Source of the DNA: Escherichia coli
GTDB lineage: Bacteria > Pseudomonadota > Gammaproteobacteria > Enterobacterales > Enterobacteriaceae
Reading direction: 5' to 3' (one strand)
DNA length: 64,000 nt
Assembly: GCF_044324875.1 (NCBI RefSeq)
Contig: NZ_CP172185.1
In this document: one piece after another, positions 1-39,397 of the stretch
Layout of the letters: every line of letters starts with the position of its first letter
How positions within the stretch are numbered: the stretch's first letter is position 1
Made by a program: the position numbers and the translations under genes
Notes under the pieces: model-generated
Database searches by the model: none
What the model was told of the DNA's origin: nothing
The model's input: only the letters and a program-made list of their open reading frames with translations

Positions 1-1168
1 AGACCACTTTATCAAGCGTGGTGTAACGGAATACCTGTGCCCACATTGTTCTGCGTTAGCTCTGTTCTCCCTACAGTTAAATGCGCCGTCAGGTGGTAAA
101 GGCTACCGCACCGGTTTACGCGGCGGTGGGCCGATGACCACTCTGATTGAATTACAGGAATATCAGGGCAATCAACAAACGCCCTTGTGGCGCAAACTGT
201 GGCTCAATGTGATGCCGCAGGACGAAGCCGACTTACCGCTACCCAAAAAATTTGACGATCTGGTTTTCCCCTGGCTTGGCCCGACGCGTACCAGCGAACT
301 GGCCGGTGCGGTGGTAACCGATGATCAGGTTAATAAACTCCAGGCGTACTGGGGAATGCCGCGGCGTATTCGTATTGATTTTAATACCACGACAGTCGGC
401 AACTGCGATATTTGCGGCGAGCAGAACGACGCGCTCCTGAGCCTGATGACGACCAAAAATTACGGCGCGAATTATGCCATGTGGCAGCATCCCTTAACGC
501 CTTACCGTGTACCCCTTAAAGAGGGCGGCGAGTTTTACTCGGTCAAACCACAACCAGGCGGTTTAATCTGGCGCGACTGGTTAGGCCTTATCGAAACGGG
601 TAAATCAGAAAACAATACGGAACTTCCCGCGCTGGTGGTGAAACTCTTTAATGCCAGCAGTCTCAAGCAGGCAAAAGTGGGCCTGTGGGGATTTGGTTAT
701 GATTTTGACAACATGAAAGCGCGCTGTTGGTACGAACACCATTTTCCGCTGCTGCTCGATAAAAAAGAAGGCCAGATACCGAAGCTGCGGCTGGCTGCGC
801 AAACGGCTTCACGGATTCTGAGTCTGTTACGGAGTGCATTGAAAGAAGCGTGGTTCTCCGATCCAAAAGGTGCACGGGGTGATTTCAGTTTTGTGGATAT
901 CGACTTCTGGAACAAAACTCAGCATCGCTTCCTGAGGTTAGTGCGCCACATTGAAGAAGGTCAGGATGCGGATGAATTACTCAGCAAATGGCAAAAGGAA
1001 ATTTGGTTATTCGCGCGTCAGGATTTTGACGAGCGTGTCTTCACCAATCCATATGAGCCCGTTGATTTGAAACGCGTCATGACCGCGCGCAAGAAATATT
1101 TTACAACATCGGCGGAGAAGCAAAATGCTAAAGCCGCCAGGGAGAAAAAGCAGGAGGCTGCTGAATGA
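1..1168 (+). CDS. casA: Cascade large subunit Cse1/CasA (type I-E), 5' end lies upstream of the window
   Basis: Reading frame of ORF 134..1168 stays open back to position 2; first gene of a tightly overlapping cse1-cse2-cas7-cas5-cas6e-cas1-cas2 series ending at a type I-E CRISPR array; identity from operon position and size rather than sequence recall. Confidence 0.75.
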   Translation, partial: DHFIKRGVTEYLCPHCSALALFSLQLNAPSGGKGYRTGLRGGGPMTTLIELQEYQGNQQTPLWRKLWLNVMPQDEADLPLPKKFDDLVFPWLGPTRTSELAGAVVTDDQVNKLQAYWGMPRRIRIDFNTTTVGNCDICGEQNDALLSLMTTKNYGANYAMWQHPLTPYRVPLKEGGEFYSVKPQPGGLIWRDWLGLIETGKSENNTELPALVVKLFNASSLKQAKVGLWGFGYDFDNMKARCWYEHHFPLLLDKKEGQIPKLRLAAQTASRILSLLRSALKEAWFSDPKGARGDFSFVDIDFWNKTQHRFLRLVRHIEEGQDADELLSKWQKEIWLFARQDFDERVFTNPYEPVDLKRVMTARKKYFTTSAEKQNAKAAREKKQEAAE

Positions 1169-1701
1169 GTATTGTAAAAGAGGAGCACAAAGCCACGCTG
1201 CGTAAATGGCACGAAGAGTTGCAGGAAAAACGCGGCAATCGTGCCAGTCTGCGGCGTAGCACAACGGTTAATGATGTTTGTCTGTCAGAAGGGTTTCGTT
1301 CTCTGCTGATGCAGACCCACACTTTGTGGAAAATTGAAGCACAAGAGTGGCGTTTTACCGCACTGGCGCTGGTCGCCGCAGTTAGCGCCAATGTTAAAGC
1401 TATTGATGAACGGCAGCCTTTTGCCGCGCAGCTGGCGGCGGTAATGTCGGAGGGGCGTTTTACTCGCCTGTCGGCAGTAAAAACGCCTGATGATTTACTG
1501 CGTCAGTTACGTCGCGCGGTCAAATTATTAAATGGTTCCGTCAATCTTATCTCTTTGGCAGAAGATATTTTCCGCTGGTGCCAGGAGAGCGACGACCTGC
1601 TCAATCATCACCGCCGCCAGCAGCGGCCAACAGAATTTATCCGTATCCGCTGGGCGCTGGAATATTACCAGGCTGGCGACGCCGATAACGAACAAAATTA
1701 A
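1165..1701 (+). CDS. casB: Cascade small subunit Cse2/CasB (type I-E)
   Basis: 178 aa ORF; ATG overlaps the casA stop (ATGA); size and position as expected for Cse2; sequence differs from the K-12 CasB I recall. Confidence 0.7.
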   Translation: MSIVKEEHKATLRKWHEELQEKRGNRASLRRSTTVNDVCLSEGFRSLLMQTHTLWKIEAQEWRFTALALVAAVSANVKAIDERQPFAAQLAAVMSEGRFTRLSAVKTPDDLLRQLRRAVKLLNGSVNLISLAEDIFRWCQESDDLLNHHRRQQRPTEFIRIRWALEYYQAGDADNEQN

Positions 1702-1715
1702 TAAAGGACTATCTC

Positions 1716-2771
1716 ATGACGACATTTATTCAGCTTCATTTGTTAACCGCTTACCCTGCTGCCAACCTTAACCGTGATGACACCGGTGCGCCAAAAACTG
1801 TGGTACTGGGTGGAGCAACGCGTCTGCGCGTTTCCTCACAAAGTCTGAAACGTGCGTGGCGCACTTCTGCACTTTTTGAACAGGCACTGGCGGGCCATAT
1901 TGGTATTCGCAGTGGGCGTATTGCGCGTGAGGCGGCAACTATCCTGATTGAGAAAGGCATCGAAGAGAAAAAAGCCATCGAATGGGCGGCAAAAATTGCG
2001 GATTATCTTGGGAAAGCTAAAAACGACAAAAAACCAAAAGATCCGCTCACTAACGCCGAAACTGAACAGCTAGTCCATATCAGCCCGGCAGAATTTGACG
2101 CCGTAAAAGCGCTGGCCCATCAACTGGCCGAAGAAAAGCGCGCGCCAAAAGAGGAAGATCTCGCTTTGTTACGTAAAGATCGCATGGCGGTAGATATCGC
2201 TATGTTTGGTCGTATGCTGGCGAATAAACCCGAATTTAATGTTGAAGCCGCCTGCCAGGTCGCGCATGCATTTGGTGTCAGTGAAACGATTGTCGAAGAT
2301 GATTTTTTCACCGCCGTTGATGATTTGCGCCAGGCTTCTGAAGATGCCGGTGCCGGGCATCTTGGTGAAACCGGATTCGGTTCTGCGCTGTTCTACACCT
2401 ATATCTGCATCGATAAAGATCTGCTGGTCGAAAACCTCGGCGGTGACGAAGCGTTAGCTAATCAGACCTTGCGCGCCTTTACGGAAGCCGCACTTAAAGT
2501 CTCCCCAACCGGCAAACAGAACAGCTTTGCCAGCCGTGCCTACGCCTCCTGGGCGCTGGCAGAAAAAGGCACTGAACAACCACGCTCTCTGGCGGCGGCT
2601 TTCTATGAACCCATTAATGGCACCCGGCAGTTAGATGTGGCGGTGCAGCGTATTACAACGCTTCGCGAAAATATGAATACGGTCTATGAACAGAAGACCG
2701 AATGCGCAAGCTTTGACGTGATGAACAAACAGGGAAGCATGAAGGACGTGCTGGACTTTATCTGCGCGTAA
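1716..2771 (+). CDS. casC: Cascade backbone subunit Cas7e/CasC
   Basis: 351 aa ORF immediately after cse2, correct size and position for Cas7e. Confidence 0.75.
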   Translation: MTTFIQLHLLTAYPAANLNRDDTGAPKTVVLGGATRLRVSSQSLKRAWRTSALFEQALAGHIGIRSGRIAREAATILIEKGIEEKKAIEWAAKIADYLGKAKNDKKPKDPLTNAETEQLVHISPAEFDAVKALAHQLAEEKRAPKEEDLALLRKDRMAVDIAMFGRMLANKPEFNVEAACQVAHAFGVSETIVEDDFFTAVDDLRQASEDAGAGHLGETGFGSALFYTYICIDKDLLVENLGGDEALANQTLRAFTEAALKVSPTGKQNSFASRAYASWALAEKGTEQPRSLAAAFYEPINGTRQLDVAVQRITTLRENMNTVYEQKTECASFDVMNKQGSMKDVLDFICA

Positions 2772-2781
2772 GGGGCGGCTA

Positions 2782-3528
2782 ATGAGCCAATATTTGATTT
2801 TTCAGCTTCATGGGCCAATGGCATCCTGGGGCGTCGATGCCCCCGGCGAAGTGCGTCATACCCATGAACTGCCTTCGCGCTCAGCATTGCTGGGGCTGCT
2901 GGCTGCCGGGGTAGGGATTCGGCGTGATGATACCGAACGATTAAACGCGTTTAACCGCCACTATTCACTGGTGGTTTGCGCCAGCCGTAACCCGCGCTGG
3001 GCACGGGATTATCACACGGTCCAGATGCCAAAAGAGGTGCGTAAAGCGCGTTATTTCAGCCGTCGCGAAGAGTTGAGCGCCCCTGATCTTCTGAGCGCGA
3101 TTATCTCCCGGCGCGACTACTACACCGATGCCTGGTGGATGGTGGCGGTGGCAACAACCCCCGATGCGCCTTACAGGCTTGAACAGTTGCAGGACGGTTT
3201 ACGTCATCCGGTTTTTCCGCTTTATCTGGGGCGAAAAAGTCATCCGCTGGCGTTACCACTTGCGCCGTTACTGCTCGAAGGCAACGCGTCTGATGTCTTA
3301 CGTAACGCATACCAACAGTATCAGGATAGTTTCCGCGAACTGAAAGTCTCACTCCCGAAACTTCAGGATGAATGCTGGTGGGAAGGGGAACACGACGGCC
3401 TGGTCGCGAGCAAAATATTACGTCGCCGGGATGTTCCTTTAAATCGTCAGCAGTGGCTGTTTGGGGAACGCACCATCAATCAGGGGCCGTGGCTCAGCAA
3501 GGAGGAACCATGTACCTCTCAAGAATAA
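2782..3528 (+). CDS. casD: Cascade subunit Cas5e/CasD
   Basis: 248 aa ORF; N-terminus MSQYLIFQLHGPMASWG...SALLGLLAAGVGIRRDD resembles the CasD N-terminus as I recall it. Confidence 0.8.
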   Translation: MSQYLIFQLHGPMASWGVDAPGEVRHTHELPSRSALLGLLAAGVGIRRDDTERLNAFNRHYSLVVCASRNPRWARDYHTVQMPKEVRKARYFSRREELSAPDLLSAIISRRDYYTDAWWMVAVATTPDAPYRLEQLQDGLRHPVFPLYLGRKSHPLALPLAPLLLEGNASDVLRNAYQQYQDSFRELKVSLPKLQDECWWEGEHDGLVASKILRRRDVPLNRQQWLFGERTINQGPWLSKEEPCTSQE

Positions 3529-4156
3529 CCTTACATACCGGCCAGCTTTTGCCTGCGCAGTTGCTGCATTTGGTGGATCGCGGTGAATATGTAATGCATC
3601 AGTGGCTGTGGGATCTTTTTCCTGGCGGCAAAGAAAGGCAATTTCTTTATCGTCGGGAAGAACTCCAGGGGGCGTTTCGCTTTTTTGTCCTGTCGCAGGA
3701 ACGCCCGGCGGAAAGTGATATTTTCACCATCGAATGCCGACCATTTGCGCCAGAGTTGCGTACCGGACAATCCCTTTGTTTCAACCTGCGGGCGAATCCA
3801 ACAATTTGTAAAGCGGGCAAACGCCACGACTTGCTGATGGAGGCGAAACGGCAGGTGAGGGGGCAGGTGGAAGGAAGTGATGTCTGGTTGCATCAACAAC
3901 AGGCGGCGCTGGACTGGCTGGCAGCGCAGGGGGAAAGAAGCGGTTTTACACTACTGGATACCTCGGTCGATGCCTACCGACAACAGCAACTGCGGCGGGA
4001 AAACTCCCGGCAACTGATCCAGTTCAGTAGCGTGGATTATACGGGGATGCTTACGGTCACCGATCCTGGGTTATTTCTGCAACGTCTCAGTCAGGGGTAT
4101 GGCAAAAGCCGGGCGTTCGGTTGTGGTCTGATGCTGATCAAACCCGGAGCAGAGGC

Positions 4157-4160
<4 letters not shown>
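3510..4160 (+). CDS. casE: Cas6e/CasE pre-crRNA endoribonuclease
   Basis: Start set at ATG 3510 (MYLSRI..., AGGAGG 5 nt upstream) inside the longer ORF 3372..4160; overlaps the end of casD; position before cas1. Confidence 0.75.
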
Positions 4161-5370
<1,210 letters not shown>

Positions 5371-5466
5371 GTTAGACGTTCTTTAAAAATAAGGAAATGT
5401 TTGAATTTAGTTGGTAGATTGTTGATGTGGAATAAATTTGTTTAAAAACAGATATGTATGCTTAGT
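5371..5466 (+). promoter_or_regulatory. CRISPR leader (AT-rich, between cas2 stop and first repeat)
   Basis: About 96 bp AT-rich non-coding stretch directly upstream of repeat 1; leader-array promoter expected here by analogy with E. coli I-E arrays. Confidence 0.6.
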
Positions 5467-5983
5467 GTGTTCCCCGCGCCAGCGGGGATAAACCGCTTTT
5501 GTTTCTGATTTCTACGCCTGTGGGTAAGTGTTCCCCGCGCCAGCGGGGATAAACCGGAGCAACTACTCGCAGCACAACAGGCAGGTAGGTGTTCCCCGCG
5601 CCAGCGGGGATAAACCGTTTTCTCTAATTACAGTGATTTTTCAAAATCCGTGTTCCCCGCGCCAGCGGGGATAAACCGCGATTCAAAAATAAAATGACGA
5701 CGGAGGAGGCGTGTTCCCCGCGCCAGCGGGGATAAACCGCCGTCGAAGTGACCATGCTCTTTCATTGTGATGTGTTCCCCGCGCCAGCGGGGATAAACCG
5801 AACACAGCGTAAAACCGTCGCAGCCATGCCGAGAGTTCCCCGCGCCAGTGGGGATAAACCGATTGGTCGGTTATGCATCCTGCTAACCAGATTGTGTTCC
5901 CCGCACCAGCGGGGATAAACCGTAATATTAGACTAATGTTTTTTTGTTGAGTTCGTGTTCCCCCGCCACTGCGGTAGAACTCC
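5467..5983 (+). CRISPR. Type I-E CRISPR array: 9 repeats of 29 bp (last degenerate), 8 spacers of 32 bp, 61 bp period
   Basis: Repeat GTGTTCCCCGCGCCAGCGGGGATAAACCG begins at 5467, 5528, 5589, 5650, 5711, 5772, 5833, 5894; repeat 7 reads GAGTTCCCCGCGCCAGTGGGGATAAACCG and repeat 8 GTGTTCCCCGCACCAGCGGGGATAAACCG; degenerate terminal repeat at 5955..5983. Confidence 0.97.
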
Positions 5984-6004: not shown

Positions 6005-7042
6005 TCAAGACGCCTTCGCCAGCTCCTTCACCAGCGGTAGCATTATCCGCATAACATCACGGCAGCGACGTTCTATTCTTCCTGGAAGTGCCTTATCAAT
6101 ATGTTGTTGATTATCCAGTCTTACGTCATGCCAGCTATTTCCCGCAGGGAATGCAGCTGTTTTTGCGCGTTGCTGATAACCATCCTTATTCCCAAGATTC
6201 CAATTTGTTGCTTCTACCGAAAGTACGGCAATACCGGCTTTGTCGAAAACTTCGGCGTCATTACAACAGCCAGTACCCTTCGGATAATTTTTATTCAAAC
6301 CCGGATTGGTCGTTGCGGCAATTCCATGACTACGCGCAATTGCCAGTGCCCTGTCGCGCGTTAATTTCCTTACTGCTTCAGGGGTTTTTACACCACTGTT
6401 GAAATACAATTTATCGCCAACAATTAAGTTATCGAGATTAATCACCAGCAGCGTATTTTTCTTTTCGGTGTCACTCATCCGCTTGAGTAAATTCTCAGCT
6501 CCTAATTTCCCTTCCTCTTCACCACTGGTCGCCACAAATCGAATACCATACTCGGTAGGCGTATTTTTCAGGCGTTCTGCCAGTTCCAGCATGACACCTA
6601 AACCTGCGGCGTTATCATCCATTCCTTGTAACGTCAGTCCGCCGAGATTGGCATCGGCGTCAGCATCGCTCAGCGGGGCGTAAGTATCCAGATGCGCCAT
6701 AATGATGATCTGCTGCGGCGCTTTGCCTTCATGAGCGGCAATCACCGTACTTCCCGTCACGTTATGCCAGCTCTTGCGATTATCGCGGGCGGTATAAATA
6801 TACCGACTATTAAATGTCCGAATATCACTGCGATAACCCATTTGCTGAAACTGTTGGCGAATATAATCGGCAGATAACATTTCTGCAGGAGTTCCGGTCA
6901 TGCGTCCCGGAAAGAAAGTAGCAATATGTCGTGCCTGGGTATTAGCAAAATCGCCAGGTTTAGGTGACGAGGCGTGTACGGGGAGAATAAAGCATACGCC
7001 GAGCGCCAGGGCAGCGGTACGGTGGCGCAATGCGGAAAACAT
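6005..7042 (-). CDS. iap: Alkaline phosphatase isozyme conversion aminopeptidase
   Basis: 345 aa ORF with N-terminal signal peptide; classical position next to the CRISPR array. Confidence 0.9.
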   Translation of the reverse strand: MFSALRHRTAALALGVCFILPVHASSPKPGDFANTQARHIATFFPGRMTGTPAEMLSADYIRQQFQQMGYRSDIRTFNSRYIYTARDNRKSWHNVTGSTVIAAHEGKAPQQIIIMAHLDTYAPLSDADADANLGGLTLQGMDDNAAGLGVMLELAERLKNTPTEYGIRFVATSGEEEGKLGAENLLKRMSDTEKKNTLLVINLDNLIVGDKLYFNSGVKTPEAVRKLTRDRALAIARSHGIAATTNPGLNKNYPKGTGCCNDAEVFDKAGIAVLSVEATNWNLGNKDGYQQRAKTAAFPAGNSWHDVRLDNQQHIDKALPGRIERRCRDVMRIMLPLVKELAKAS

Positions 7043-7293
7043 AGTGAGTCCTTAAATACCATGCAAATTTTTTTACCGCCATAGTATGAAACTGCCGCTG
7101 CGCTAAAACAATTTCAAATCTTCCTAAACGCCCGAAATCCGGTGGCTTAAGCACTTTTTGATATTAGCTTTGCCAAATCGTTATTCCGTTAAGGAACTAC
7201 TCATTCTAATTGGTAATTTCATTCGTTCTCTTACGCTCCCTATAGTCGAAACATCTGATGGCAAGAAAATAGCGGTATTGCAAAGGAACGGTT

Positions 7294-8202
7294 ATGGATC
7301 AAAAACGACTTACTCACCTGCGGCAACTGGAGGCGGAAAGCATCCACATTATTCGCGAGGTGGCGGCAGAATTCTCAAATCCGGTGATGCTCTACTCTAT
7401 CGGTAAAGATTCCAGCGTCATGCTGCATCTGGCGCGCAAGGCGTTTTATCCAGGTACGCTGCCTTTCCCGTTGCTGCATGTCGATACCGGCTGGAAATTC
7501 CGCGAGATGTATGAGTTCCGCGATCGTACGGCGAAAGCCTACGGCTGCGAGCTGCTGGTGCATAAAAACCCGGAAGGCGTGGCGATGGGGATTAATCCAT
7601 TCGTGCACGGCAGCGCGAAACATACCGATATTATGAAAACTGAAGGCCTGAAACAGGCGCTGAACAAATACGGTTTTGATGCCGCCTTCGGTGGTGCGCG
7701 CCGTGACGAAGAGAAATCCCGCGCTAAAGAGCGAATCTACTCTTTCCGTGACCGCTTCCATCGCTGGGATCCGAAAAATCAGCGCCCGGAGCTGTGGCAC
7801 AACTACAACGGGCAAATTAACAAAGGCGAAAGCATCCGCGTCTTCCCGCTCTCTAACTGGACCGAGCAGGATATCTGGCAATACATCTGGCTGGAAAATA
7901 TTGACATTGTTCCACTGTATCTCGCTGCGGAACGACCGGTTCTGGAACGCGACGGTATGTTGATGATGATTGATGACAACCGTATCGACCTGCAACCGGG
8001 AGAAGTGATTAAAAAACGGATGGTGCGTTTCCGTACGCTGGGCTGCTGGCCGCTGACCGGTGCGGTGGAGTCAAATGCACAAACACTGCCGGAAATCATC
8101 GAAGAGATGCTGGTTTCCACCACCAGTGAACGCCAGGGTCGCGTGATTGACCGCGACCAGGCGGGGTCTATGGAGCTGAAAAAACGTCAGGGGTATTTTT
8201 AA
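7294..8202 (+). CDS. cysD: Sulfate adenylyltransferase subunit 2
   Basis: 302 aa, [27 protein letters not shown]...; PAPS-reductase-like fold; followed by cysN and cysC. Confidence 0.95.
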
Positions 8203-8203
8203 G

Positions 8204-9631
8204 ATGAACACCGCACTTGCACAACAAATCGCCAATGAAGGCGGCGTCGAAGCCTGGATGATTGCGCAACAACATAAAAGCCTGCTGCGTTTTCTGACCT
8301 GTGGTAGCGTCGATGACGGCAAAAGTACCCTGATTGGTCGCCTGCTGCACGATACCCGCCAAATCTACGAAGATCAGCTCTCATCGCTGCATAACGACAG
8401 TAAACGTCACGGCACCCAGGGCGAAAAACTGGATCTGGCACTGCTGGTGGACGGCCTGCAAGCTGAGCGCGAACAGGGCATCACCATTGACGTGGCTTAC
8501 CGTTATTTCTCTACCGAGAAGCGTAAATTTATTATCGCCGATACCCCAGGGCACGAGCAGTACACTCGCAATATGGCGACTGGCGCATCGACATGTGAAC
8601 TGGCGATCTTACTGATCGATGCCCGTAAAGGCGTGCTCGATCAAACCCGTCGTCACAGTTTTATCTCCACACTGTTGGGGATCAAACATCTGGTCGTGGC
8701 GATCAACAAAATGGATCTGGTGGGTTACAGTGAAGAGACGTTCACCCGTATTCGCGAAGATTATCTGACGTTTGCCGGGCAGCTGCCGGGTAATCTGGAT
8801 ATCCGCTTTGTGCCGCTCTCTGCACTGGAAGGCGACAACGTGGCTTCGCAAAGTGAAAGTATGCCGTGGTACAGCGGTCCGACACTGCTCGAAGTGCTGG
8901 AAACCGTGGAGATCCAGCGAGTGGTGGATGCCCAGCCAATGCGCTTCCCGGTGCAGTACGTTAATCGCCCGAATCTCGATTTTCGTGGCTACGCCGGAAC
9001 GCTTGCCTCCGGTCGCGTGGAAGTCGGGCAACGTGTCAAAGTGCTGCCCTCTGGTGTGGAATCAAACGTCGCGCGGATCGTGACTTTTGATGGCGATCGC
9101 GAAGAAGCCTTTGCCGGAGAAGCGATCACCCTGGTGCTGACGGATGAGATCGACATCAGCCGTGGCGATCTGCTGCTGGCGGCAGACGAAGCGTTACCGG
9201 CTGTGCAGAGCGCGTCGGTGGATGTGGTATGGATGGCGGAACAGCCGCTTTCCCCAGGCCAGAGTTACGACATCAAAATTGCCGGTAAGAAGACGCGTGC
9301 TCGTGTTGATGGCATTCGTTATCAGGTTGATATTAATAACCTTACCCAACGCGAAGTTGAAAACCTGCCGCTGAACGGCATCGGCCTGGTGGATCTCACT
9401 TTTGACGAGCCACTGGTGTTAGATCGTTATCAGCAAAACCCGGTTACCGGTGGGCTGATTTTTATCGATCGCCTGAGCAATGTGACCGTGGGTGCCGGTA
9501 TGGTGCACGAGCCAGTTAGCCAGGCAACTACTGCGCCATCTGAATTCAGTGCATTCGAACTGGAATTGAATGCCCTGGTTCGCCGCCACTTTCCACACTG
9601 GGGCGCGCGCGATTTGCTGGGGGATAAATAA
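8204..9631 (+). CDS. cysN: Sulfate adenylyltransferase subunit 1 (GTPase)
   Basis: 475 aa with GTP-binding motifs ([18 protein letters not shown]). Confidence 0.95.
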
Positions 9632-10236
9632 TGGCGCTGCATGACGAAAACGTCGTCTGGCATAGCCATCCGGTCACTGTGCAACAACGCGAGCTACACC
9701 ACGGTCATCGTGGTGTAGTGCTGTGGTTTACCGGCCTCTCCGGGTCCGGTAAATCAACGGTCGCCGGGGCGCTGGAGGAGGCGTTACATAAACTCGGCGT
9801 CAGTACGTATCTGCTGGATGGCGACAATGTTCGCCATGGATTATGCAGCGATCTCGGTTTTAGCGATGCCGATCGTAAAGAGAATATCCGTCGCGTCGGT
9901 GAAGTGGCGAATTTGATGGTTGAAGCCGGACTGGTGGTGCTGACCGCATTCATCTCGCCACACCGCGCCGAACGCCAGATGGTTCGCGAACGCGTAGGAG
10001 AAGGGCGCTTTATCGAAGTGTTTGTCGATACACCGCTGGCGATTTGCGAAGCCCGCGATCCAAAAGGCTTATATAAGAAAGCGCGTGCCGGTGAACTGCG
10101 TAACTTTACGGGAATAGATTCCGTTTACGAAGCGCCTGAATCGGCAGAAATTCATCTCAATGGTGAACAATTAGTAACAAATTTGGTACAGCAATTATTA
10201 GATCTGTTGAGACAGAACGATATTATCAGATCCTGA
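9631..10236 (+). CDS. cysC: Adenylylsulfate (APS) kinase
   Basis: 201 aa with P-loop GLSGSGKST; overlaps the cysN stop. Confidence 0.95.
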
Positions 10237-39244: not shown

Positions 39245-39304
39245 TTTTTCAGTAAGGAATCAGGACAGGGATGTTCTTGATGAGGGAATCAGAACTGATA
39301 GCAA

Positions 39305-39397
39305 ACGCCAGATTGCCCGATGCGCTGCGCTTATCGGGCCTACCTGGTTCGTGCGACATGTAGGCCGGATAAGGCGTTCACGCCGCATCCGGCACTG
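39305..39397. repeat. REP/BIME element (two palindromic units)
   Basis: gcccgatgcgctgcgcttatcgggcctac and gtaggccggataaggcgttcacgccgcatccggc, classic REP palindromes between convergent hycI and ascB. Confidence 0.85.

What the first reader, a model, noticed from the sequence alone, without database searches (positions are those of the whole stretch)
5467..5983. Eight-spacer array of unknown targets; point variants in the two oldest full repeats
Spacers, leader-proximal first: cttttgtttctgatttctacgcctgtgggtaa; gagcaactactcgcagcacaacaggcaggtag; ttttctctaattacagtgatttttcaaaatcc; cgattcaaaaataaaatgacgacggaggaggc; ccgtcgaagtgaccatgctctttcattgtgat; aacacagcgtaaaaccgtcgcagccatgccga; attggtcggttatgcatcctgctaaccagatt; taatattagactaatgtttttttgttgagttc. 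By eye none matches elsewhere in this window. Repeats 7 and 8 each carry a substitution inside the palindromic core (CCAGTGGGG and CCCCGCACC), and the terminal repeat is degenerate, consistent with leader-distal ageing.
Basis: seen in the sequence. Interest (0 to 1): 0.45.

Follow-up and report, generated by a model that had tools for sequence, protein, structure and literature searches.

The report
E. coli CRISPR array targeting prophages
This is an ordinary E. coli type I-E CRISPR immune-memory array sitting next to its cas genes; three of its eight "unknown" spacers trace to two E. coli prophages and to the SSU5 family of phage-plasmids, so it is well-understood biology rather than a new kind of element.

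Summary
There are nine 29-nt repeats at 61-nt spacing (5467-5983) and eight 32-nt spacers, all transcribed correctly. The array sits between cas2 and iap, the classical E. coli CRISPR1/CRISPR2.1 position. It belongs to the O157:H7-type variant (A-type repeat GTGTTC..., leader-A, cas-EO genes), not the K-12 type.

"Unknown targets" no longer holds for three spacers:
- S1 matches 32/32 the integrase gene of a lambdoid prophage at ttcA in two E. coli genomes.
- S3 matches 32/32 a prophage gene at the icd site in E. coli draft genomes.
- S7 matches 29-31/32 an ATPase gene of SSU5-family phage-plasmids (746 plasmid records, 12 phage records).

All three protospacers carry an ATG PAM, the motif reported as commonest for this variant. 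S4 and S8 occur only in other E. coli arrays. S2 and S5 have no match; S6 matches only a related metagenome array.

The two core changes (a G:U wobble and a loop base) keep the hairpin. The variant repeats are inherited together with S6-S8 in a metagenome array. The degenerate last repeat is conserved across E. coli.

No array in 5,426 complete E. coli genomes shares more than one spacer with this one. Interest is low.

The parts
2..1168 (+). casA/cse1, 3' part (the gene starts upstream of the window)
   Evidence: Open frame from the window start. 97.4% aa identity to O157:H7 Sakai CasA residues 133-520, but only 21% to K-12 CasA.
1165..1701 (+). casB/cse2
   Evidence: Intact 178-aa ORF. 84% aa identity to Sakai CasB.
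1716..2771 (+). casC/cas7e
   Evidence: 100% aa identity to Sakai CasC and 30% to K-12 CasC.
2782..3528 (+). casD/cas5e
   Evidence: 99.6% aa identity to Sakai CasD.
3510..4160 (+). casE/cas6e, the pre-crRNA endonuclease
   Evidence: 96.3% aa identity to Sakai CasE and 27% to K-12 CasE.
4157..5080 (+). cas1e
   Evidence: 98.7% aa identity to Sakai Cas1 and 85% to K-12 Cas1. The ORF is intact.
5077..5370 (+). cas2e
   Evidence: 97.9% aa identity to Sakai Cas2 and 85% to K-12 Cas2.
5371..5466 (+). AT-rich leader (leader-A type)
   Evidence: Identical to the O157:H7 Sakai leader except within its first 8 nt next to cas2, and clearly different from the K-12 leader. No sigma-70 consensus was found by the simple scan, so the promoter is not shown.
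5467..5800 (+). Repeats R1-R6, six identical A-type repeats (starts 5467, 5528, 5589, 5650, 5711, 5772), interleaved with spacers S1-S5
   Evidence: They fold into a 7-bp hairpin with a 4-nt loop at -15.1 kcal/mol.
5496..5527 (+). Spacer S1 (newest)
   Evidence: 32/32 match to the 5' end of the integrase gene of a lambdoid prophage inserted at ttcA (the Rac site) in E. coli STEC384 and STEC379. PAM is ATG. The integrase falls in phrog_1.
5557..5588 (+). Spacer S2
   Evidence: No match in phages, plasmids or complete E. coli genomes. No match in IMG/VR, exact or relaxed, or in JGI metagenomes, exact.
5618..5649 (+). Spacer S3
   Evidence: 32/32 match in IMG/VR UViG_2529293142_000021 and in several E. 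coli draft assemblies. The target is a 241-aa gene (phrog_2600) between kilR and xis/int of a prophage at icd. PAM is ATG.
5679..5710 (+). Spacer S4
   Evidence: Found only inside CRISPR arrays of 27 complete E. coli genomes. In the two arrays examined (M7424, F374) it is spacer 12 and no other spacer is shared. No protospacer was found.
5740..5771 (+). Spacer S5
   Evidence: No match anywhere.
5801..5832 (+). Spacer S6
   Evidence: No protospacer was found. It is present in the array of metagenome contig OJKD01002219.1.
5833..5861 (+). Repeat R7, variant GAGTTCCCCGCGCCAGTGGGGATAAACCG
   Evidence: It carries T2A and C17T. The G10:U17 wobble keeps the hairpin at -13.2 kcal/mol. The same variant lies between S6 and S7 in OJKD01002219.1.
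5862..5893 (+). Spacer S7
   Evidence: 31/32 match to Klebsiella SSU5-like phage-plasmids and to one E. coli plasmid. 29/32 match to Salmonella phage SSU5 and to the E. coli SSU5-like plasmid examined; the other 175 E. coli plasmid records score 90-95% identity. The target is a phrog_886 ATPase gene and the PAM is ATG. In the four targets read, mismatches are at position 11, plus 6, 12 or 30.
5894..5922 (+). Repeat R8, variant GTGTTCCCCGCACCAGCGGGGATAAACCG
   Evidence: G12A lies in the loop and the hairpin is kept at -14.3 kcal/mol. The same variant precedes S8 in the TUM14771-type arrays and in OJKD01002219.1.
5923..5954 (+). Spacer S8 (oldest, the anchor)
   Evidence: It is the last spacer in the four of the seven complete E. 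coli genomes whose arrays were read (identical 6-spacer arrays) and in OJKD01002219.1. No protospacer was found.
5955..5983 (+). Terminal degenerate repeat R9, GTGTTCCCCCGCCACTGCGGTAGAACTCC
   Evidence: The canonical hairpin is lost. It closely resembles the terminal repeats of K-12, M7424 and O157:H7.

Best explanation
This is the canonical chromosomal type I-E CRISPR array of E. coli, called CRISPR1 or CRISPR2.1, lying between cas2 and iap. It belongs to the O157:H7-type variant, with A-type repeats, leader-A and cas-EO genes.

**How it works (established type I-E biology, not tested here)**
1. Cas1-Cas2 inserts 33-nt fragments next to the leader. The fragments are taken from invading DNA beside an A(A/T)G motif.
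2. The array is transcribed from the leader.
3. Cas6e cuts each repeat at the base of its hairpin, giving 61-nt crRNAs.
4. Cascade uses these crRNAs to find PAM-flanked protospacers, and Cas3 then degrades the target.

**What the memory records**
- It records encounters with temperate elements of Enterobacteriaceae: two lambdoid-type E. coli prophages (S1, S3) and the SSU5 phage-plasmid family (S7).
- The three oldest units (S6-S8, with their mutated but hairpin-competent repeats) are an inherited block.
- The five newer spacers were added in this lineage.

**Shown versus inferred**
- Shown: the anatomy, variant membership, targets, PAMs, polarity and inheritance.
- Inferred: present-day expression and interference. 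In E. coli the system is normally H-NS-silenced.
For: **Array and setting**
- The repeat periodicity is far beyond chance.
- The array is flanked by intact casB-C-D-E, cas1 and cas2, an AT-rich leader, and iap.
- Cas proteins are 96-100% identical to O157:H7 Sakai (CasB 84%), while the Cascade subunits that aligned (CasA, CasC, CasD, CasE) are only 21-34% identical to K-12. The leader is essentially identical to Sakai's.
- The repeat carries the 'A' base that defines CRISPR-A in PMC3737337.

**Targets**
- S1 matches a prophage integrase 32/32 (E = 2e-5 in 28 Gb).
- S3 matches an icd-site prophage 32/32.
- S7 matches 746 plasmid records and 12 phage records of the SSU5 family. All plasmid hits vanish when S7 is removed from the query.
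- All three targets belong to phage protein families.
- All three protospacers, in the crRNA-sense orientation, are preceded by ATG. The chance of this is about (1/64)^3.
- CAT (= ATG) is reported as the commonest PAM for leader-A arrays (34 of 55) and as interference-proficient.
- Dion et al. [quoted passage not shown]

**Polarity and inheritance**
- The related array in OJKD01002219.1 shares only the trailer-end S6-S7-S8. The TUM14771-type arrays share only S8. All differ at the leader end.
Against: - No expression or interference data exist.
- cas3 lies outside the window, so the system's completeness is unknown.
- The simple promoter scan found no sigma-70 consensus in the leader.
- Five of eight spacers have no identifiable protospacer.
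- S7 has no perfect target in any record. All four targets read base by base differ at position 11, and no record in any collection matched 32/32.
- S8's crRNA would lack a normal 3' hairpin, because R9 is degenerate.
- Rfam returned no CRISPR-DR family hit.
Confidence: 0.9

Rival explanations
1. The array is a silent relic. It is a frozen record that no longer gives immunity, because it is H-NS-silenced or cas3 is defective, and it is useful only as a lineage marker.
For: - E. coli I-E is described as repressed and its arrays as stable over long periods (Dion et al. introduction).
- Arrays are identical across unrelated isolates: four 6-spacer arrays and two 18-spacer arrays.
- The M7424/F374 lineage keeps 18 spacers despite a cas1 pseudogene.
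- No sigma-70 consensus was found in the leader.
- S7 has no perfect target.
Against: - All seven cas ORFs in the window are intact.
- The six leader-proximal repeats are perfect.
- The two newest traced spacers (S1, S3) match rare E. coli prophages perfectly, with a functional PAM. This indicates comparatively recent, PAM-selective acquisition.
Confidence: 0.35
2. The spacers target prophages or a phage-plasmid resident in the same genome. The array would then regulate or repress those elements, or be tolerated only because it is inactive, rather than exclude invaders.
For: - S1 and S3 hit E. coli prophages exactly.
- About 10% of complete E. coli genomes show some self-targeting.
- A paper whose abstract was seen (PMC9782134) claims that CRISPR-Cas controls cryptic prophages in K-12.
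Against: - No protospacer lies in the 64-kb window.
- The two complete genomes holding the S1 prophage do not hold S1 in a CRISPR array.
- Self-targeting of a prophage in the same genome was rare, at 18 events among 1,014 genomes.
Confidence: 0.1
3. The S7 match to SSU5-family elements is not a true origin. It would be a chance or convergent similarity, and the spacer would come from something else.
For: No 32/32 match exists among 746 plasmid records and 12 phage records. All four targets examined differ at position 11, which is a non-synonymous D/N difference.
Against: - The match is 31/32 with E = 6e-5 to 2e-4.
- It always falls in the same gene and orientation, with an ATG PAM.
- The other mismatches are all at synonymous wobble positions of the target gene.
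Confidence: 0.05

Closest known systems
E. coli O157:H7 str. Sakai CRISPR2.1 locus with cas-EO genes (ECs_3608-3615)
   Same: - Same position, between cas2 and iap.
- Same A-type repeat.
- Leader identical except within its first 8 nt next to cas2.
- Cas proteins 96-100% identical.
- Same kind of degenerate terminal repeat.
   Different: - No spacer is shared. Sakai has 4 spacers, ending in the common anchor GGCGCACTGGATG....
- CasB is only 84% identical.
E. coli K-12 MG1655 CRISPR1 (cas-EK, T-type repeat GAGTTC..., leader-T)
   Same: - Same locus and type I-E architecture.
- 29-nt repeat and 32-nt spacers.
- Similar degenerate terminal repeat, and variant repeats at the trailer end.
   Different: - Cascade proteins that aligned are only 21-34% identical, and Cas1/Cas2 85%.
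- The leader differs.
- K-12 acquires with CTT (= AAG) only, whereas the O-type uses CWT (PMC3737337).
- No spacers are shared.
Array in metagenome contig OJKD01002219.1 (locus L014)
   Same: Its three trailer-end spacers are S6, S7 and S8, with the identical R7 and R8 variants.
   Different: - Its 13 leader-side spacers are all different.
- Its terminal repeat differs (GTGTTCCCCGCGCCAGCGGGGAACTCTCA).
- Its iap-side flank looks more diverged from the window than those of the complete genomes.
TUM14771 / MS 69-1 / 755 / GN02461 six-spacer CRISPR1 arrays
   Same: They share the anchor spacer S8 together with the G12A repeat variant.
   Different: - The other five spacers differ.
- The terminal repeat is of a different (hybrid) form.
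- The overlapping cas-side segment (3' end of casD, casE, cas1, cas2, leader and part of the array) is about 94% identical at nucleotide level.

Membership tests
CRISPR array (general) | Several near-identical short direct repeats at a constant period, separated by unique spacers of constant length | tested here: met
   Nine repeats, 61-nt period and eight unique 32-nt spacers. Shuffles give 0 expected repeat matches.
CRISPR array (general) | An AT-rich leader on one side and cas genes next to it | tested here: met
   The 96-nt AT-rich leader (5371-5466) lies directly after cas2.
Type I-E CRISPR-Cas (E. coli CRISPR2 repeat type) | A 29-nt repeat ...CCCCGCGCCAGCGGGG... that forms a Cas6e-type hairpin | tested here: met
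   The consensus repeat is identical to that of other E. coli arrays. It is predicted to form a 7-bp stem with a 4-nt loop.
Type I-E CRISPR-Cas (E. coli CRISPR2 repeat type) | Signature genes cse1, cse2, cas7e, cas5e, cas6e, cas1e and cas2e | tested here: met
   All are present and open in the window (casA is partial at the window edge). RefSeq annotates homologous regions as type I-E.
Type I-E CRISPR-Cas (E. coli CRISPR2 repeat type) | cas3 present and intact | not testable with these tools
   cas3 lies upstream of casA, outside the window (gene order).
Type I-E CRISPR-Cas (E. coli CRISPR2 repeat type) | Protospacers flanked 5' by AWG (AAG or ATG) in the crRNA-sense orientation | tested here: met
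   All three traced protospacers have ATG.
E. coli cas-EO / leader-A / CRISPR-A variant (Diez-Villasenor et al. 2013) | The repeat has A (not T) next to its leader-proximal end in their orientation, which is GTGTTC here | tested here: met
   Eight of nine repeats start GTG. Only R7 has the T-type GAG.
E. coli cas-EO / leader-A / CRISPR-A variant (Diez-Villasenor et al. 2013) | Leader and cas genes of the O157:H7 type | tested here: met
   Direct comparison with Sakai and K-12.
E. coli cas-EO / leader-A / CRISPR-A variant (Diez-Villasenor et al. 2013) | Bias towards the CAT (= ATG) PAM among natural protospacers | tested here: met
   3 of 3 here. The paper reports 34 of 55.
Rfam CRISPR-DR families | A covariance-model hit to a CRISPR direct-repeat family | tested here: inconclusive
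   There was no CRISPR-DR hit at the gathering threshold or at E<=1; only weak chance hits to Chlorobi-1 appeared. Whether the library holds such models is unknown.
Active adaptive immune system | crRNA production, interference against matching targets, and new spacer uptake | not testable with these tools
   This needs RNA data or experiments. The only indirect evidence is intact cas ORFs and PAM-correct perfect matches.

The most novel reading that the evidence does not exclude
The type I-E system of this under-sampled E. coli lineage may be naturally active against temperate elements. Its two newest traceable spacers are perfect, PAM-correct hits to rare E. coli prophages.

Its old, inherited spacer S7 may still give interference or priming against the whole SSU5 phage-plasmid community, which is found in Klebsiella, Escherichia, Enterobacter, Yersinia and Salmonella. 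In the four targets examined, the only mismatches besides position 11 fall at positions 6, 12 and 30. From my knowledge of published Cascade structures, not checked here, these are bases that Cascade does not pair.
Probability: 0.15. Interest if true: 0.4.

Novelty: new member of a known kind. Interest (0 to 1): 0.15.

Why it matters
It matters little beyond bookkeeping, because the locus is a textbook system. Three modest points of value remain:

- **Targets.** It adds a concrete example to the view that E. coli CRISPR memory is directed at prophages and phage-plasmids. This includes the clinically widespread SSU5-like elements.
- **PAM bias.** It gives a clean natural illustration of the ATG-PAM bias of the O157-type variant.
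- **Lineage marker.** The nested sharing of spacers is a usable marker for a lineage that is at least 0.8-1.1% diverged from every complete RefSeq E. coli genome in the three segments compared. S8 is shared with seven complete genomes. S6-S8 are shared with one metagenome array. S1-S3 and S5 were found in no other array, and S4 recurs only in one unrelated array type.

Tried and rejected
**Whole-array search.** I searched the leader plus array against 5,426 complete E. coli genomes. Only repeat-level matches came back (75-79% identity over the full length), so the same array is absent from that set.

**Spacer searches that found nothing**
- Exact IMG/VR scans for S2, S4, S5, S6 and S8 found nothing.
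- Relaxed 23-nt patterns with N at positions 6, 12 and 18 found nothing for S2 and S5 in IMG/VR.
- The genome-contig scans for S6 and S5 found nothing.
- The exact metagenome scan for S2 found nothing.
- The relaxed metagenome scan for S6 gave one real hit, which was an array rather than a protospacer, and two chance hits with 8-9 mismatches.

**Second spacer against the same element (primed adaptation).** I extended the icd-site prophage to about 37 kb and scanned all fetched loci at up to 9 mismatches. No second hit appeared.

**Naming the targeted prophages.** A search of deposited phages for relatives of the S1 and S3 prophages returned only short fragments.

**Literature and supplements.** Searches for the spacer strings found nothing.

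**Rfam.** No CRISPR-DR hit.

**Rejected idea.** A terminator-like hairpin is formed by the end of R1 and the start of S1. It is no more than chance gives, since shuffles average 1.2 such sites. It also competes with the much stronger repeat hairpin.

Full report

Yes. The 29-nt sequence GTGTTCCCCGCGCCAGCGGGGATAAACCG occurs eight times on the + strand at an exact 61-nt period, from 5467 to 5922. Six copies are perfect, one has 2 mismatches and one has 1. Dinucleotide-preserving shuffles give zero such matches. A ninth, degenerate copy (GTGTTCCCCCGCCACTGCGGTAGAACTCC) occupies 5955-5983.

None has another match in the window on either strand, even allowing 10 mismatches.

One detail was missed. 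Repeat 7 (5833-5861) has two changes, T2A and C17T, not one.

**2. What is it?**

*Context.* The array lies directly downstream of seven open cas reading frames: casA (partial at the window edge), casB, casC, casD, casE, cas1 and cas2, spanning 2-5370 on the + strand. A 96-nt AT-rich leader follows (5371-5466). Downstream of the array come iap on the opposite strand (6005-7042) and then cysDNC. This is the classical E. coli CRISPR1 position, called CRISPR2.1 in the nomenclature of Diez-Villasenor and colleagues.

*Source organism.* The flanks are E. coli. However, the best identity to any of 5,426 complete RefSeq E. coli genomes is only 99.2% for the cas side, 99.2% for iap-cysC, and 98.9% for 23 kb of core genes further along. 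The source lineage is therefore poorly represented among complete genomes.

*Which type I-E variant.* Direct comparison shows the O157:H7-type variant.
- Cas proteins are 96-100% identical to strain Sakai, with CasB at 84%.
- The leader is identical to Sakai's except within its first 8 nt next to cas2.
- The K-12 Cascade subunits that aligned (CasA, CasC, CasD, CasE) are only 21-34% identical, and K-12 Cas1/Cas2 are 85% identical.
- The repeat begins GTGTTC. This is the 'A' form (GAACAC in the opposite orientation) that Diez-Villasenor et al. 2013 define as CRISPR-A, which they link to leader-A and cas-EO genes (PMC3737337).

**3. Repeat variants**

Folding places the consensus repeat in a 7-bp stem (positions 5-11 paired with 16-22) with a 4-nt loop, at -15.1 kcal/mol.
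- R7's C17T turns G10:C17 into a G:U wobble (-13.2 kcal/mol).
- R8's G12A lies in the loop (-14.3 kcal/mol).
- Both repeats keep the same structure.
- R7's other change, T2A, is the K-12-type base.
- Only the terminal repeat loses the hairpin.

The variants are not private to this strain. The G12A repeat precedes S8 in the TUM14771-type arrays. Both R7 and R8 variants, together with S6-S7-S8, are present in the 16-spacer array of metagenome contig OJKD01002219.1.

A new repeat is copied from the leader-proximal repeat at each integration; this is established type I-E mechanism, not tested here. The repeats upstream of the variants are canonical. The substitutions therefore most likely arose after those repeats had left the leader-proximal position (inference), and they were then inherited.

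The degenerate terminal repeat resembles those of K-12 (GAGTTCCCCCGCCTCTGCGGTAGAACTCC), M7424 and O157:H7, which follow a different last spacer. It is a conserved old feature of the locus, not decay in this strain.

Taken together, 'leader-distal ageing' is a fair description of where the variation sits. The variants are nonetheless hairpin-preserving and inherited.

**4. Spacer targets**

I searched all eight spacers, joined by runs of N, with blastn at E<=10 against INPHARED phages and PLSDB plasmids. The complete E. coli genomes were searched at E<=1 with all eight spacers and at E<=10 with S7 left out. I followed this with exact or relaxed scans of IMG/VR, JGI metagenomes and GTDB species genomes.

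| Spacer | Result | PAM |
|---|---|---|
| S1 (newest) | 32/32 to the first codons of a tyrosine integrase gene in a prophage at ttcA in STEC384 and STEC379 | ATG |
| S2 | No match | - |
| S3 | 32/32 to a 241-aa gene (phrog_2600) of a prophage at icd, in an IMG/VR contig and E. coli draft assemblies | ATG |
| S4 | Only in CRISPR arrays of 27 complete genomes; no protospacer | - |
| S5 | No match | - |
| S6 | Only in the array of OJKD01002219.1; no protospacer | - |
| S7 | 29-31/32 to a phrog_886 ATPase gene of SSU5-family phage-plasmids | ATG |
| S8 (oldest) | Only in arrays of 7 complete genomes and OJKD01002219.1; no protospacer | - |

*S1.* The prophage carries int, xis, exoVIII, gam, cI/cro, replication genes, ninG and lysis genes. 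It is inserted at ttcA, the Rac attachment site. It has almost no nucleotide relatives among deposited phage genomes.

*S3.* The target gene lies between kilR and xis/int of a prophage inserted at icd, the e14 site. The host flank is 98.6% identical to K-12. The prophage combines a lambda-like early region and head genes with P2-like contractile-tail genes. It also lacks close relatives among deposited phages.

*S7.*
- It matches 12 phage records and 746 plasmid records. By organism the plasmid hits are Klebsiella 307, Escherichia 202, Enterobacter 86, Yersinia 62 and Salmonella 48.
- All plasmid hits disappear when S7 is left out of the query.
- In complete E. coli genomes it hits 177 plasmid records.
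- The best matches are 31/32: Klebsiella elements and one E. coli plasmid.
- Salmonella phage SSU5 and the one other E. coli plasmid read base by base (p09EL50) match 29/32. The remaining 175 E. coli plasmid records fall in the 90-95% identity band.
- All four targets examined differ from the spacer at position 11, a D/N codon difference. The other mismatches fall at positions 6, 12 or 30, which are wobble positions of the target gene.
- From my knowledge of Cascade structures and mismatch studies (Semenova 2011; Jackson, Mulepati and Zhao 2014; Fineran 2014; not checked here), every sixth position is not base-paired and the seed is positions 1-5 and 7-8. On that basis these targets would carry one effective, non-seed mismatch.

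*PAM evidence.* Three ATG PAMs out of three in the correct orientation is very unlikely by chance, about (1/64)^3. This fits the report that CAT (= ATG) is the commonest PAM of leader-A arrays (34 of 55) and supports interference.

*S4.* In the two arrays examined (M7424 and F374, identical 18-spacer arrays, with cas1 carrying an internal stop) it is spacer 12. No other spacer is shared.

*S8.* It is the last spacer in the four of the seven complete genomes whose arrays were read. All four arrays are identical and hold 6 spacers.

*Sensitivity.* By my estimate from the BLAST scoring scheme, matches of roughly 28/32 or better would have been seen in the three BLAST collections.

*No primed adaptation seen.* No second spacer hits the fetched parts of the S1 or S3 prophages. 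I therefore see no sign of several spacers taken from one element.

**5. Array history**

Sharing is nested from the trailer end.
- S8 is shared with seven complete genomes and the metagenome array.
- S6-S8 are shared with the metagenome array only.
- S1-S3 and S5 were found in no other array. S4 recurs, but only in one unrelated array type.

No array in the complete-genome set shares more than one spacer with this one. This confirms leader-proximal growth.

S4's presence in an otherwise unrelated array means either independent capture of the same protospacer or recombination. I cannot tell which.

**6. How it most likely works**

By membership in a very well-studied system: Cas1-Cas2 integrates AWG-flanked fragments at the leader, the array is transcribed from the leader, Cas6e cleaves at the hairpin base, and Cascade plus Cas3 destroy PAM-flanked matches.

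- Shown here: anatomy, variant, targets, PAM and polarity.
- Inferred: current expression and interference.

E. coli type I-E is described as H-NS-repressed (Dion et al. 2024). cas3 is outside the window, and the simple promoter scan found nothing in the leader. The alternative that the array is a silent relic therefore stays open, at about one in three.

**7. Comparison with what is known, and verdict**

Every defining feature I could test for a CRISPR array, for type I-E, and for the cas-EO/leader-A/CRISPR-A variant is met. cas3 and activity could not be tested.

The finding that traced spacers hit prophages agrees with Dion et al. [quoted passage not shown]

The array is a new allele of a known locus, not a new kind of thing. 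Its interest is low. Its modest value lies in the SSU5 phage-plasmid spacer, the clean ATG-PAM pattern, and its use as a lineage marker.

Noticed in passing
L014 (metagenome contig OJKD01002219.1) 1-583, joining the first repeat at 584: Phage-like coding sequence runs straight into the first CRISPR repeat with no leader. It is 64% identical at protein level to the exoVIII/Gp157 region of the S1-target prophage. The last 32 nt before the repeat are preceded by AAG. This looks like an assembly chimera joined through a spacer that perfectly matches a phage present in the same sample.
   Followed up: partly
window 1-5466, 6005-10236 and 40000-63000: No complete RefSeq E. coli genome out of 5,426 exceeds 99.2% identity on the cas side, 99.2% on iap-cysC, or 98.9% over 23 kb of core genes. 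The source appears to be an under-sampled E. coli lineage. No IS elements are present in the window.
   Followed up: partly
window 1165-1701 (casB): CasB is only 84% identical to O157:H7 Sakai CasB, while the neighbouring Cas proteins are 96-100% identical. This suggests a mosaic or recombined segment inside the cas operon.
   Followed up: no
window 5955-5983, compared with L004 2533-2561 and L014 1560-1588: The same last spacer, S8, is followed by two different terminal repeats. The window has a K-12-like degenerate form. TUM14771 and the metagenome array have a form that is canonical up to position 21 and then joins the trailer. Separate trailer-end deletions or gene conversion would explain this.
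   Followed up: partly
window 17119-17193 and 39247-39396: These are the only two breaks in collinearity with E. coli CP062824.1. The window lacks a roughly 1-kb hypothetical gene downstream of rpoS. It also lacks the HigB/HigA toxin-antitoxin pair between hycI and ascB.
   Followed up: partly
window 5481-5497: A terminator-like hairpin followed by a T-run is formed by the 3' end of repeat 1 and the start of spacer S1. It is no more than shuffles give (mean 1.2) and competes with the stronger repeat hairpin.
   Followed up: partly
L003 491-1414 and L024 1-414 (E. coli M7424 and F374): The lineage that shares spacer S4 has cas1 annotated with an internal stop, yet keeps an 18-spacer array that is identical in both genomes.
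   Followed up: no
L005 18806-40032 (STEC384 prophage at ttcA); L008, L026 and L028 (prophage at icd): Neither prophage targeted by S1 or S3 has a close nucleotide relative among 50,697 deposited phage records. The icd-site prophage combines lambda-like early and head genes with P2-like contractile-tail genes.
   Followed up: partly
window 63110-63554: Three tRNA genes lie in a cluster near the window end, one of 90 nt and two of 74 nt.
   Followed up: no
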